Positions 30,906-62,303 of a stretch of 64,000 bases of DNA are shown piece by piece. The notes under the pieces were generated by a model. That model was not told where the DNA came from and did no database searches. It saw only the letters and a list, made by a program, of their open reading frames with translations. The position numbers and the translations under genes were made by a program. Position 1 is the first letter of the stretch. Every line of letters begins with the position of its first letter. Source of the stretch: Eledone cirrhosa (lineage: Eukaryota); contig OZ024757.1 in assembly GCA_964016885.1 (NCBI GenBank), positions 30,070,001-30,134,000 on the forward strand. The letters run 5' to 3'.

Positions 30906-30984
30906 CTGCATACGGCCTTTGGATACTTCGGACATGTTTGAAAGCGACAAGGGTTAACAAAGCATTGTACATAATTGCATTTTG
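30906..30984 (-). CDS. Gene 2, exon A: KCNYVQCFVNPCRFQTCPKYPKAVC
   Basis: tttttatttcAG / GTGAGT, 79 nt, phase 1->2. Confidence 0.8.
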
Positions 30985-31545
30985 CTGAAATAAAAAATAT
31001 ATTATATATATATATATATGTATGCATAAACATATATGCGTGTGTGTGTGTGTGTGTGTGTGTGTGTGTGTGTGTGTGTGTGTGTGTGTGTGTGTGTGTG
31101 TGTGTGTGTGTGTGCATGTGTCTGTATGTGTACATATATATATATATATATATATATATATATATGTGTGTGTGGGAGTATACATATATAGATATGTGTG
31201 TGTGTGTGTGTGTGTGTGTGTGTGTGTATATATATATATATATAATTTATTATATCTATATGTATGCATAAACATATATATGTGGGGGGAGTATGTGCGT
31301 GTCTATCCCGGGTCCAATCGGATGTAACCACGATTAGTAAGGTACTCAATACATAGTAGAGTATATAATGTGCTTTCCTTGTTATTTCCTTCGAATGAAA
31401 TAGTGCTAGTCCTGTAGAAGCTATTTCTATATTAAACATTATATATATATATATATATATATATAAAACAAAGAAGGTGTAGTAAGATATCGGGTGGACC
31501 ATAATGCACCAGAGTACTCAATACTTAGGTTAGTAGAGTGGGTAA

Positions 31546-31675
31546 TAGGAAAAGAGTCAGGACTCTGACGGCTGAGCTTTGGCCGTCTCGACAGCTAGAT
31601 CCGAACTCCGATGTTCGGGTCTAGCTGACGAAACGGCCGGAGCTCAGCCGTCTGAGGTCCTGATTCTTTTCCTAT
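31546..31675. repeat. Imperfect ~60-bp-arm hairpin of a pLTR tail; copies at 33625, 35647 and 62904
   Basis: TAGGAAAAGAGTCAGGAC..CAGCTAGATCCGAAC tccgat GTTCGGGTCTAGCTG..GTCCTGATTCTTTTCCTA. Confidence 0.8.
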
Positions 31676-31857
31676 ATATAGATAGATAGATAGATAGATA
31701 AATAGATAGATAGATAGATATAAATTTTTCTAAGAGGTTCCTCACTGAGATTGAACCCCAGACTAACAACTCCACCGTCTCTAACAGCTACCACTAGTCC
31801 AACGAAACAGCTACATTACTCCAGTAGCATATCAAAAGCAAAAATGCCACAATATTC

Positions 31858-31922
31858 CACCTGTCTGAAGAGAACACACAAAAGCAATCACTTTGACGTC
31901 TTCGAAATACGTATAACAAGAT
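31858..31922 (+). ncRNA. Hammerhead motif in the tandem units (also ~33958, ~35956, ~63221; 3' halves at 29632 and 60959)
   Basis: cctgt CTGAAGA gaac..cttc GAAA tacgta TA acaag; palindromic stem III ATACGTAT. Confidence 0.6.
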
Positions 31923-57486: not shown

Positions 57487-60400
57487 GTATATATATATAT
57501 ATATATATATATGTGTGTGTGTGTGTGTGTATGTATATTTGTGTTCGTGCGTCTGAGTATGTGTGTATATAGACAAAAGTAACTTAAGAACATCTGGACC
57601 TTTCGCAAGTATAAGTTCACGCATACACGCACAGACATGCATATACGTATATATATTAATATATAGTTTATATATACATATATATATATGTGTGTGTGTG
57701 TATATATATATATATATATATATATATATATATATATATATATATATATATATATATATATATATATATATATATATACACATATATATATATATATATA
57801 CACACACATATATATATATATTTTATATATATATATATATATATATATATACATATATATATTTACGTATGTGTCTATCAACATATTGATATATATATAT
57901 ATATATATATATATATATATATATATATATATGTATGTATGTATGTATGGAGTGGGGGTATAAGCAGATATATGTTTACTTGGTGGGGAGAAATTTAAAG
58001 AGGAAAAAGCAAAGTAGATAGTTAGATAGATAGATAGAGTAACAGAGAATGATTGAGTTCACAGTTGGTTATATTCGGCTCTTACCACATGCTGTGCTAC
58101 TGAAACACAATACATACCCATGCACATACACTGACATACGCGCACACACATACATGTATGCATACGCATATATATATATATTTATATATATTTCTGTTTA
58201 TCTTTTATATGTGTATATCTATATATATATATAACGAAGGAAATGTGGTAAGGAACCAGATGGACCATAACGCACCAAAGTACTCAATACTTAGGGTAGT
58301 AGAGTGGGAAATAGGAACGAGTAGGACCCCGATATATATATATATTTCTGTTTTTCTTTTACACACACGCATACATATATATATTATATATATATATATA
58401 TATATATATATATATATATATATATAAACAAGGGAAGAAAGAGGAATACTGGGTGGTTGCACATGGGTTACATATTATATAATTAGTCCCTCATCAGTGA
58501 TTTGCCAACCATCATTGGTATTTCATCGCATTAAAAATCATATACCTCAGGTTGGTGCGAGCAATAACTAAAATAAGCTATTGGAACAAGTGAATCACGT
58601 AAAGCGAATGAGACAAGTAAACAACATAGAAGGAAAAGCAAACCGATATATATATATATATATATATATATATATATATATATATATATATATATAATTG
58701 ATTAAAAGTTTAACAAGGTTCAAGGAGTTAATCAATGAATAAAGTTTTACAATATATTAGAAGCACTCTACAAAGGGTTTTCTGGAGTTATTAATATTAC
58801 TTCAAAATATTAATAAATATAGACTGCCATGACTGAATTATAACCATCAACACAGTCAAGGTATGTCAGACATCAATTTATTTTATCTGATGAGGACGTA
58901 CTGTTGAAATAGCTCAGTACCTCTGAAATATGTATAATAAAATATATTTGATCAGATGAAGGTCTATATTTATTAATATGTTGAAGTAATATATATATAT
59001 ATATATATGTGTGTGTGTATGTATATGTATATATATATATATATATATATATATATACTCTTTTACCTGTTCCAGCCATATCCGGTTGAGGCCATGCTGG
59101 GGCACCTTTTGTTGTTACACATTTTATCTCCAGCCTATGTTGGTTGGCCACATATATGTGTGTGTGTGTGTGTGTGTGTGTGTATGTGTGTATATACATT
59201 GGGAGCTGGACCAACCGTCGAACAGGACGCCACTGTGTGATGCCAAAGGTCCCGTCTTCCACATCTAGAATAAGGAGCAGATATTGCAATAGCCTGGCGT
59301 TCAAGGGCCCTCAACTCTTCAACAAGCTGTCAAGGGATCTGAGAGATCTGTATGATGTGGATGTTTTCAAGAAACATCTCGACACCTTGCTATCCAGGAT
59401 CCCGGATGAGCCCACAGCAAGGCACGAGGGAAACCTAAGGGTAGCAGCGACGAACTCCCTCTTGCACCAGTGGCCAACCAATACAGGCTGGAGATAAAAT
59501 GTGTAGCAACAAGGGCAGTGCCCCAGCATGGCCTCAGCCGGATGGCTGGAACAGGTAAAAGAGTAAAAGTGTATATATATACATATATATATAACAAAGA
59601 AAGTGGGGTAAGGAACCAGGTGGACTATAACGCACCAGAGTACTCGATACTTAGGTAGAGTTGGTAATAGGAAAAGAGTCAGGACCCCGACGGCTGAGCT
59701 CCGGCTGTTTCGACAGCTAGATCCGAACTGACCAGTAGTATTAGGACGGCAGGGACTTAGCTGAACTAGGGTACAGTCTATATATGGGCATGCAATCAAA
59801 ACACAGTGAAGGTATCATATCAAACAATCGTAAAAATTGTTGTTTTTCTTTTCTGTCACGGGGAGTGGTCAATGATTTGGGGATGCCATAGTTAAATTCC
59901 TTCAAAGCGGCGGGGATGGGGTGGCTGAACTTGCCTGTGGAACAAAGGGGAGGGAGTAAGATGACATTCCGACCTGTGGATGCGGGGGCGGTCATACGTT
60001 AAGAGAGAATTCTTTACAGCTATCTCTAATGGAGGTAAAATCATCATATGAGAATCAAGGAATGTTGTAGAGTGAAATTGAGTATGCCAGTCTAACATTT
60101 GGCTAAAGAGCAAAGCATATAGGAGTTAATACTAATTAAATTCCTAATTAATAAAATTTAGTTATTAGTTACTCTAATGCACTGGAACGGCACCTCAATG
60201 TAGTAATTTACCAATATTATCTTCCATAATGATACACCCATAAAAAAGACCATGGCTGTGTGTTCGGCTGGTACTATGTATATTTAACAAGAGTGAAAAT
60301 ATTTGGGTTAACCTAAGGAAGAATGGAAACTGAATATAATAGTGTAGATATGCAAAGATCCACCTAAGTGTAGTTAGAGTGTGTAACTAATGAAGAAAAA

Positions 60401-61692
60401 AAATGTATCTTGGTGTTGGTAATACCGGGTCTTAAAATCGCAAGCAGTTAATCCGATGTAGGCCTTGCTGGAGCTTTCCGTCCTCACGTTGCACTGGTTG
60501 ACCACGTTTCGTTCTCGGCATCTATTGTTGAGGGGGCACGATGGTCTATCCAGACAGTTACACCTCCTAGTTTGCTCATTGCTAATATCATTGTTGTTTC
60601 TCCTGTTAGAGAGGAGCTTTTTGTTGTTAGATGAAGCGATGTTTTGTGCAAAGTTAGGTGTAGTGCTGTAGGAAAGTTTAACAGTGTTTCTGTTGATGAT
60701 ATTGTGGTAGCGGTGTTGGGGTGGGAAGTGTTCATCGAGAAGTCTAAAGAAGATCTTGCCAATTGGTGTTGCAACCTCGGCATTGTGGGGAGGGTTAGAC
60801 CACGTTAGGTGGCGTGAGCGGCGGCGTCGCCTGATGGGTCCGCTAGAAGGGCCTGGATAATATGAAATGTCCTCCCGGAAGCCGCCTCTTTTCAGGGCCT
60901 GGTTGTAATATGGCGCGTGTTCGTTGAAATCTGCTCGTTGGCTGAAAAGGTTATCCCATGCAATCACTTTGACGTCTTCGAAATACGTATAACATGATTA
61001 TTTAATAAACAGGATGTAAACTTAAAACCGTGGTGTCTGGAGTTCTGTTTGCATGCCAACACGGGAGCAGGAATGAAGGGTTCATACTACTGACATGGCT
61101 TTAAAAATGAGGCTTGTATGTATAATGGCTAACGAATCGAATGTTATTAATATTTGAAAAACTCAGATTACATTTGTTATATATATATATATATATATAT
61201 ATATATATATATATATATATATATATATATATATATACCTCCACTCTCACCAAGCGTGAAACTAATAATACCTTATAACATTCACTCCTGCGTTTGTCTG
61301 TTTTTTTGTTTTAGGTTATTTCGAACTATATATATACGGTAATGTCGCTATCTTATGTTACTCGGATGTCTAAACGTCGTTATTCCGAAATCTGCACCAG
61401 TATCAGGTTTGTCCAGGGGCAAAAATAAATTAATAAAATATATCAAAAAATAAAAACTAATGGCAAAAGTAAAAATCAATCAAAAAATCTTTCAATAATC
61501 AATTTTAGAAATTTTATTTCGTTTCATGTAAATAATGAATATATATGCTGAATCAGCGTATATTACATTTAAGCTATAATTAGTATAGATATCATTGTGG
61601 ATTGTTTGTTTGTTTTTTTTAATTAAAAGCCTTCGCTGTGAAAAATGTAGTTATATCTACATTAAATTTTGTATAAATATCTGATTTTATTA

Positions 61693-61777
61693 TTATTTAC
61701 GTGGAGGAAAAAGGCTGCAATCCACCTTCTTTCCATTCAGGTAAAAGTCGAAGAAACAGCCATTGCAGTAGTTGGGT
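61693..61777 (-). CDS. Gene 3 (partial), exon B of the last module: PNYCNGCFFDFYLNGKKVDCSLFPP(RK*)
   Basis: Duplicate of 30379-30463. Confidence 0.72.
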
Positions 61778-62224
61778 CTGCAATGAAAATCGAGAAAATT
61801 AATATACAGTGAAATTCCGTTATGACGATATTCACGGAGTATAAAAGAAATTCGTACCAACGTATATTTCTTTATCGCGAGATCAACAGAAAACAAATCG
61901 AGATTTGTTTGTTATTACCTCGGGGATTGAAAAAAATCTCATTATACTGAAAAATTCGTTATGATGGAATTTTACCTGTAGTAGGAATCTGAAACACGAA
62001 AGTAGCTGTAAAACATTCCCATTCCTATTTTAGGCGACGAATAACCAAAGTCGTTAGAACGCTGAATGGAATGTTTTGTGGTATTCGTTCTGAGTTCAAA
62101 TCCCATTCGAGGTCAAATTTGCTTTTCATTCTTTCAGTGTTCAATTGCAGAGAATTCATTTTTAGAGGGGAGCATATTGTTGATTTAACCAATAAATTAT
62201 TTTATTTTATTTTATTTTACTCAC

Positions 62225-62303
62225 CTGCATACGGCCTTTGGATACTTCGGACATGTTTGAAAGCGACAAGGGTTATCACGGCATCGTACATACTTGCATT
62301 TCG
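62225..62303 (-). CDS. Gene 3, exon A: KCKYVRCRDNPCRFQTCPKYPKAVC
   Basis: 79 nt, AG / GTGAGT. Confidence 0.78.

What the first reader, a model, noticed from the sequence alone, without database searches (positions are those of the whole stretch)
30906..62303. Hypervariable loop in otherwise near-identical modules suggests diversifying selection at a reactive site
Seen: exon A variants are CNYVQCLVNPC (37.1k), CIYVRCRDNPC (35.1k), CNYVQCFFNPC (33.0k), CNYVQCFVNPC (30.9k), CKYVRCRDNPC (62.3k) and CNIFRCFADPC (23.6k). Between 30.9k and 35.1k the changes AAT>ATC, CAA>CGA, TTT>CGT and GTT>GAT are all non-synonymous, while the rest of exon A and the flanking introns are almost identical. Established: canonical serine-protease inhibitors (Kunitz, antistasin) have Cys at P2 and a variable P1, where Arg gives trypsin and Phe/Leu chymotrypsin or elastase specificity. 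Inference: the residue after the second Cys (F/L/R) is a P1 site, making this a multi-specificity inhibitor or toxin array.
Basis: partly seen in the sequence, partly recalled or inferred. Interest (0 to 1): 0.75.

Follow-up and report, generated by a model that had tools for sequence, protein, structure and literature searches.

The report
Cysteine-rich repeat protein with hypervariable loop
This is a spliced gene for a predicted secreted protein built from near-identical cysteine-rich repeats that differ almost only in one short loop, likely the bait loop of a protease inhibitor from a widespread domain family that has no Pfam entry.

Summary
Observation confirmed. The six motifs are exon A of a two-exon, 52-residue, eight-cysteine module on the minus strand; a seventh lies just outside the window. 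Among six internal modules 8 variable bases fall in the first 28 nt of exon A (7 change amino acids), none in the other 51 nt, 7 in 442 nt of intron (scan p about 5e-5). Contigs of one run show signal-peptide exon to A, A to B and B to A splices, so a multi-repeat secreted protein is made. The module is not Kunitz or antistasin by Pfam: it belongs to an unnamed family found in many invertebrates, protists and bacteria, often fused to Kunitz, Kazal, WAP or TIL domains, with a weak fold match to the snail carboxypeptidase inhibitor NvCI. The residue after Cys2 is mostly F/L, sometimes K/R, as expected of a P1 site, but binding is untested and dN/dS within the loop alone is not significant. The array likely arose by fusion of single-domain genes through a new splice donor just before the old stop. 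No evidence for a toxin.

The parts
47442..47517 (-). Exon 1 coding part (signal peptide, phase-1 donor), copy 1 of the middle unit, TATA-like box upstream
   Evidence: this exon type is joined to exon A in a contig of run X4; the two identical coding copies cannot be told apart
45612..45687 (-). Exon 1 coding part, copy 2 (coding sequence identical to 47442-47517)
46160..46313 (-). Truncated exon 1 copy (signal peptide breaks off, no donor)
37038..37116 (-). Exon A, L-V variant; variable patch 37089-37116
   Evidence: a contig with the L letter is laid in X4
36519..36595 (-). Exon B with phase-1 donor CAC|GTAAAT
35032..35110 (-). Exon A, R-D variant; variable patch 35083-35110
34508..34584 (-). 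Exon B
32932..33010 (-). Exon A, F-F variant; variable patch 32983-33010
32413..32489 (-). Exon B; its letters plus F-V exon A match the B-to-A junction contig
30906..30984 (-). Exon A, F-V variant; variable patch 30957-30984
30387..30463 (-). Exon B, last internal module (linker variant SFSLP)
   Evidence: its splice to the terminal module is inferred
25737..25812 (-). Exon 1 of the single-domain unit (signal peptide, own TATA-like box)
   Evidence: expression of this exon not tested
23568..23646 (-). Exon A of the terminal module (F-A variant, most diverged)
22351..22435 (-). Terminal exon B coding part with stop; no GT donor
   Evidence: a 556-nt contig of X4 carries its letters and 3' UTR
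21880..22350 (-). 3' UTR of the terminal exon; 84-87% homologous to the start of each of the six B-to-A introns
62225..62303 (-). Exon A, R-D variant of the upstream duplicated unit; variable patch 62276-62303
61701..61777 (-). Exon B, last module of the upstream unit (linker SLFPP)
63761..63837 (-). Exon B whose exon A (L-V with K/R upstream, mosaic) and exon 1 lie beyond the window end
58371..64000 (.). Segmental duplicate of about 27-41 kb (runs on about 4 kb past the window), 0.2-0.5% diverged outside microsatellites

Best explanation
The locus is a spliced gene of tandem two-exon, eight-cysteine modules behind a signal-peptide exon, and its product is likely a secreted multi-headed serine-protease inhibitor in which the residue after the second cysteine (F, L or R) likely serves as the P1 bait. 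Shown: module structure, splicing of exon 1 to A, A to B and B to A, concentration of amino-acid changes in the linker-to-loop stretch, membership of a broad unnamed domain family. Inferred: the five-domain 287-residue product (last junction not seen), disulfide tethering of the loop by Cys1/Cys2 onto an NvCI-like beta-hairpin core, canonical substrate-like binding with F/L heads for chymotrypsin/elastase/subtilisin-like and R heads for trypsin-like enzymes, selection for different heads while unequal crossing-over and conversion keep the rest alike, and origin of the array by fusion of tandem single-domain genes through a new weak splice donor that skips the old stop.
For: Loop pN 0.185 vs intron p 0.008; scan p 5e-5. 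The variable peptide stretch spans separate exons (last 31 nt of exon 1: 7-15 differences between exon types vs 0 in the first 45 nt; last 13 nt of exon B; first 28 nt of exon A) while neighbouring intron ends and donors are conserved, which points to the protein rather than to a DNA hot spot. 8 of 38 HMMER hits carry Kunitz, Kazal, WAP, TIL or thyroglobulin-1 domains above Pfam cut-off, i.e. 8 of the 10 with a solid second domain type; one alternates 7 Kunitz with 8 of these repeats; a myxobacterial relative sits with pacifastin and TIL domains. In 125 family domains the site after Cys2 is F36, L30, S13, K9, T9, Y5 (3.1 bits); 12 of 98 multi-repeat proteins carry both K/R and F/L/Y/M there. 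Precedent: P1 under positive selection with concerted evolution of repeats in Pot II inhibitors (PMC2259423, passages); coding faster than introns in trappins (PMC2831891, passages); P1 Arg/Lys vs Met sets specificity in antistasin-type inhibitors (PMC6265900, passage). Fusion origin: terminal 3' UTR is homologous to all six B-to-A introns, which keep TAA TAA TAA right after the donor; the B donor is the only one in the gene without +5 G; signal-plus-one-domain proteins are common in the family (6 of 9 printed).
Against: No call tested binding or loop exposure. Zero synonymous among 7-8 loop changes is not significant (p 0.12-0.16), and against the terminal module the loop is also high in synonymous change (pS 0.28, pN 0.42 vs pS 0.09, pN 0.05 in the rest of exon A), which fits an old patch escaping homogenisation as well as fast adaptive change. 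In 81 close repeat pairs from 10 other proteins the site after Cys2 was not among the most variable (0.11 vs up to 0.34). None of the 12 top hits checked carried an inhibitor domain, nor did the 107 marine-bacterial hits (secretion-tail proteins, all F). The nearest solved fold, NvCI, does not inhibit serine proteases (PMC6780499, passage).
Confidence: 0.55

Rival explanations
1. The loop is a selected, variable binding surface but the target is not a serine protease: the repeats bind microbes, receptors or another enzyme class (antimicrobial, mucus, egg-coat or venom accessory protein).
For: Hypervariability is shown but says nothing on the target; the five-domain model is basic (38 K+R vs 13 D+E); the family also occurs with MAM/TSP1, HYR, Lustrin and bacterial secretion-tail domains; variation extends into the linker and N-terminus, beyond a P4-P3' loop.
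Against: Inhibitor domains dominate among second domains (8 of 10); the F/L versus K/R switch at one site recurs in 12 of 98 multi-repeat proteins. Tissue of expression is unknown, so a toxin role has no support here.
Confidence: 0.25
2. It works like NvCI, blocking metallocarboxypeptidases with the tail after the last cysteine; the loop is a secondary or incidental site.
For: NvCI is the top fold match in two VIA runs (Z 3.1, rmsd 3.2, 43 aligned, 28% id; Z 3.0, rmsd 3.5, 45 aligned); cysteine steps 8 and 13 agree (ours 5,8,5,3,13 from Cys3; NvCI 6,8,4,11,13 from positions in PMC5511257); the linker after Cys8 has 3 amino-acid changes among modules.
Against: Z near 3 is weak; NvCI needs a free two-residue C-tail (PMC6780499, discussion), whereas internal modules have no free end, the terminal tail has 7 residues, and family tails after the last Cys are 0-12 residues with only 3 of 71 of length 2.
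Confidence: 0.08
3. No selection on the loop: the patch is a by-product of recombination, two older module lineages meeting at the exon A start while conversion homogenised the rest, or relaxed constraint on an exposed stretch.
For: R-D modules share three intron changes next to exon A, the 64.3k copy is a mosaic, and four-gamete conflicts show recombination; few sites; the two segments could be haplotypes (0.2-0.5% apart).
Against: Relaxed constraint cannot raise coding change about 20-fold above the intron level; the variable stretch is spread over three exons kilobases apart with conserved intron ends between; no diverged donor copy was found in the genome.
Confidence: 0.12

Closest known systems
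Potato type II (Pot II / Pin2) multi-repeat serine-protease inhibitors of Solanaceae
   Same: About 50-residue eight-cysteine tandem repeats, concerted evolution of repeats, trypsin and chymotrypsin heads in one chain, positive selection at P1 (PMC2259423, passages)
   Different: No sequence or fold match found to that family; here each repeat is two exons with phase-1 ends, function untested
NvCI / NpCI carboxypeptidase inhibitors of Nerita snails (PDB 4a94, 5mrv)
   Same: Top though weak fold match (Z about 3, 27-28% id over 43-45 residues), two matching cysteine steps, mollusc source
   Different: NvCI has 6 cysteines, a free 8-residue N-tail where this family has the Cys1/Cys2 loop, a longer hairpin loop and a two-residue inhibitory C-tail; it is a single domain and does not inhibit serine proteases
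Antistasin-type inhibitors (antistasin, hirustasin, guamerin)
   Same: Local motif C-x-x-V-x-C-[R/F/L] resembles the recalled antistasin reactive segment with Cys at P2; P1 Arg/Lys vs Met switches specificity
   Different: Antistasin domains have ten cysteines (PMC7851590, passage); no Pfam antistasin match for window exons or whole relatives
Trappin/elafin (WAP) gene clusters
   Same: Coding region of duplicates evolves faster than introns (PMC2831891, passages); recalled WAP reactive loop also has Cys before P1
   Different: Separate genes rather than one repeat protein; no WAP match over this domain
SCREPs, secreted cysteine-rich repeat proteins (ScrepYard)
   Same: Secreted, tandem disulfide-rich repeats with short Pro-rich linkers
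   Different: Falls in the 'unknown architecture' half that the paper did not analyse (PMC9885460, passages)

Membership tests
Kunitz/BPTI (PF00014) | Match to the Kunitz profile; six-cysteine Kunitz spacing | tested here: not met
   No Pfam hit for five window exons at E<=10 (short queries); in whole relatives Kunitz hits lie beside, not over, this domain; module has 8 Cys with steps 5,5,5,8,5,3,13
Antistasin (PF02822) | Match to the antistasin profile; ten-cysteine domain | tested here: not met
   No antistasin hit (5 exons, 55 relatives); 8 cysteines per module
Antistasin (PF02822) | Cys at P2 followed by a variable P1 | tested here: inconclusive
   C-[F/L/R] motif present; that it is the reactive bond is untested; P2 Cys is recalled
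NvCI-type carboxypeptidase inhibitor | Two-stranded antiparallel sheet with three disulfides (fold) | tested here: inconclusive
   Model of a bacterial relative has a two-strand hairpin; VIA Z 3.0-3.1, rmsd 3.2-3.5
NvCI-type carboxypeptidase inhibitor | Free two-residue C-terminal tail after the last cysteine | tested here: not met
   Terminal module has 7 residues after Cys8, internal modules continue into the next repeat
NvCI-type carboxypeptidase inhibitor | Inhibition of M14 carboxypeptidases | not testable with these tools
   needs assay
Canonical (standard-mechanism) serine-protease inhibitor | Secreted small disulfide-rich domain | tested here: met
   Hydrophobic signal-like exon 1 spliced to an 8-Cys module; signal peptide judged by eye
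Canonical (standard-mechanism) serine-protease inhibitor | Hypervariable reactive-site residue on a conserved scaffold | tested here: inconclusive
   Met within this gene; not met in close repeat pairs of 10 other proteins
Canonical (standard-mechanism) serine-protease inhibitor | Exposed convex loop in canonical conformation that docks in S1 | not tested
   Models gave no coordinates or exposure; no complex model was obtained
Canonical (standard-mechanism) serine-protease inhibitor | Tight 1:1 inhibition with slow cleavage of P1-P1' | not testable with these tools
   needs assay
SCREP architecture | Signal peptide plus tandem cysteine-rich repeats in one chain | tested here: met
   Exon 1-A, A-B and B-A junctions in contigs of X4; open 287-aa model

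The most novel reading that the evidence does not exclude
An undescribed family of canonical serine-protease inhibitors, spread from bacteria to chordates, uses the NvCI scaffold with an added disulfide-tethered N-terminal bait loop; this gene shows one member caught becoming multi-headed, by a new splice donor that fused single-domain genes, and diversifying its heads under selection.
Probability: 0.4. Interest if true: 0.72.

Novelty: new variant of a known kind. Interest (0 to 1): 0.52.

Why it matters
Hypervariable reactive sites in repeat inhibitors are well known, so the pattern itself is not a surprise. What is of value is that it marks the likely functional site of a domain with hundreds of relatives and no Pfam, NCBIfam or PDB sequence match, gives a cheap test (three natural variants of a 52-residue module against trypsin and chymotrypsin), suggests relatives for the so far isolated NvCI fold, and preserves the steps by which a single-domain gene turned into a repeat protein (fossil stops and 3' UTRs in every intron).

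Tried and rejected
No run listed for this DNA is on record as RNA; X4 is read as cDNA only because its contigs carry exact splice junctions. Contig depths (internal vs terminal exon B about 4-5 to 1) lean towards a real duplication but are no copy number. Idea that each 2-kb unit ends at its own stop (alternative last exons or silent donors): rejected for X4, where B is spliced to A and no internal-type read-through contig was laid. Word search with exon A plus intron-coded residues found nothing. PDB sequence searches gave no relevant hit; Foldseek gave none at E<=0.001 (Trop2 at E 1.5 not pursued, and it did not reach Z 2). Atlas: window sequence not held; a bivalve relative gave only a 0.78 unnamed cluster. 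Cysteine-spacing pattern: 0 viral contigs. Complex prediction of a relative's K-type domain with a bacterial trypsin gave no verdict: not folded. A second model (two-domain relative, pLDDT 80) was not fold-searched, queue busy. No cephalopod name appears among the 120 listed of 551 or 120 listed of 401 hits. Paper searches: six family motifs as text gave 1 unrelated paper; searches listed no paper whose title or abstract start describes this domain; supplements were not searched. Earlier-findings look-ups returned nothing. A profile search of the own genome was not possible; a single relative found only these exons.
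Full report
Observation. The six motifs are present on the minus strand where stated. Each opens a 79-nt exon A (phase-1 acceptor, phase-2 donor) followed 442-447 nt later by a 77-nt exon B; together they encode a 52-residue module with eight cysteines. The genome (3.0 Gb, AT- and microsatellite-rich; an octopus-like cephalopod is my inference, not tested) holds 7 exon A copies, all at this locus, the seventh just beyond the window.

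Statistics. Among the six internal modules, 8 variable sites lie in exon A nt 1-28 (7 non-synonymous), 0 in nt 29-79, 4 in exon B (three in the linker) and 7 in the A-B intron. The cluster has p = 5e-5 in 100,000 shuffles; loop pN averages 0.185 against intron p 0.008. Within the loop the lack of synonymous change is not significant (p 0.12-0.16). Against the diverged terminal module the loop differs at 10-12 of 32 nt, the rest of exon A at 3 of 47, with both pS and pN raised. R-D modules share three intron changes, the outside copy is a mosaic, and eight four-gamete conflicts with one intron site show recombination.

Gene structure. Signal-peptide exons with a TATA-like box lie at 47.5k, 45.7k, 25.8k and about 5.7 kb beyond the window, plus a broken copy at 46.2k. 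Their first 45 coding bases are identical, while the last 31 differ at 7-15 places between types, so the variable peptide stretch runs from the end of exon 1 or B into the start of A. Contigs of run X4 (kind not on record; spliced, so read as cDNA) show B joined to A at the donor CAC|GTAAAT, A joined to B, and the terminal-type exon B with its 3' UTR. A loose-end consensus of two contigs is explained at 30 of 30 positions by exon B plus the 45.7/47.5k exon 1. The model exon 1 + four modules + terminal module is open for 287 residues; the 25.8k unit alone gives 79. The junction into the terminal module was not seen. The terminal 3' UTR is 84-87% alike to the start of all six B-to-A introns, which keep three stops right after the donor, and this donor alone lacks +5 G. 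I infer fusion of tandem single-domain genes by a newly made donor, then unequal crossing-over; loss of a donor in the last module is the alternative. The segment at 58-68 kb is 0.2-0.5% diverged from 27-41 kb outside microsatellites, has two modules and no terminal exon of its own, and could be a second haplotype.

Family. Window exons match no Pfam family. A cysteine-spacing pattern found 35 loci in prokaryote genomes whose translations resemble the whole module; exon A and their alignment match with HHalign probability 96.6. Profile searches gave 551 proteins of 2172 candidates, 38 representatives and 401 of 1061 candidates, named from snails, bivalves, a chiton, rotifers, a nematode, tardigrades, a nemertean, a hemichordate, echinoderms, amphioxus, a tunicate, a coral, an amoeba and bacteria. 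The domain itself hit no Pfam or NCBIfam model. Eight of 38 representatives carry Kunitz, Kazal, WAP, TIL or thyroglobulin-1 domains, two carry MAM/TSP1 or HYR, the rest nothing solid; 0 of 12 and 1 of 5 carry inhibitor domains. After leaving out 107 near-identical marine bacterial proteins (all F), the site after Cys2 is F36, L30, S13, K9, T9, Y5 among 125 domains, and 12 of 98 multi-repeat proteins mix K/R with F/L/Y/M. Against my reading, that site was not especially variable in 81 close repeat pairs from 10 other proteins.

Structure. A bacterial relative folds with pLDDT 85 into a short helix and a two-strand hairpin. Foldseek found nothing at E<=0.001. VIA ranked the snail carboxypeptidase inhibitor NvCI first among 48,161 chains (Z 3.1, rmsd 3.2, 43 aligned, 28% identity) and alone among 338 (Z 3.0). 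This is weak, but two cysteine steps agree. NvCI has six cysteines, a free N-tail where this family has the Cys1/Cys2 loop, acts by a two-residue C-tail and does not inhibit serine proteases (PMC6780499, passages and discussion part 1; PMC5511257, passages; PMC9966942, passages). The window protein and most relatives lack such a tail. Loop exposure and protease binding remain untested.

Mechanism. Most likely (0.55) each module presents a disulfide-tethered bait loop with Cys at P2 and F, L or R at P1, giving a multi-headed inhibitor whose heads are kept different by selection while the scaffold and introns are homogenised, as in Pot II inhibitors (PMC2259423, passages) and trappins (PMC2831891, passages). 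The P2-Cys analogy to antistasin, Kunitz and WAP loops is recalled; P1 rules for antistasin-type inhibitors are from PMC6265900 (passage). Rivals: another selected binding role (0.25), a recombination by-product (0.12), carboxypeptidase inhibition (0.08). Nothing supports a toxin role.

Novelty. The evolutionary pattern is known; the scaffold appears unnamed in the libraries searched, and paper searches (listings and abstract starts) showed no description of it, though most subscription papers, MEROPS and supplements were out of reach. Verdict: new variant of a known kind, interest 0.52.

Noticed in passing
window 48435-51031 and 53691-55937 (+): Two long reading frames (frame-shifted 177/228/559 aa; intact 748 aa) whose motifs recall Penelope-like reverse transcriptase plus GIY-YIG endonuclease; recalled resemblance only, Pfam gave no hit at E<=0.001. 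They sit between the two duplicated units.
   Followed up: partly
window 41200-47800: Rearranged region upstream of the middle unit: nested inverted and direct duplications (41834-42780 vs 46477-47406; 42115-42776 vs 43617-44266; 45269-45968 vs 47127-47798) that duplicated exon 1.
   Followed up: partly
window 45612-45642, 47442-47472, 25737-25767 and about 69.6 kb (beyond window): The last 31 coding bases of exon 1 are as variable as the loop; the 45.7/47.5k version ends the signal region with FEVFRRI, so its cleavage site and mature N-terminus may differ.
   Followed up: partly
window 41217-41521, 21185-21520, many (TA)n sites; L002 region about 75.0-75.4 kb: Long perfect palindromes and short inverted-repeat elements inserted at (TA)n microsatellites, also inside the module introns.
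   Followed up: no
window 4574-4792, 10810-12099, 51092-51294: A family of about 200-nt SINE-like repeats in tandem, ending in (ATT)n.
   Followed up: no
L006-L040: The same domain occurs in secreted proteins of marine Marinimicrobia (with secretion tails, some with a PETase-like domain), in a cyanobacterium and in a myxobacterial protein with EGF, pacifastin and TIL domains; sharing between bacteria and animals was not examined for transfer.
   Followed up: partly
P0124: An unnamed 770-aa protein alternates 7 Kunitz domains with 8 repeats of this domain, all with Ser after Cys2.
   Followed up: no
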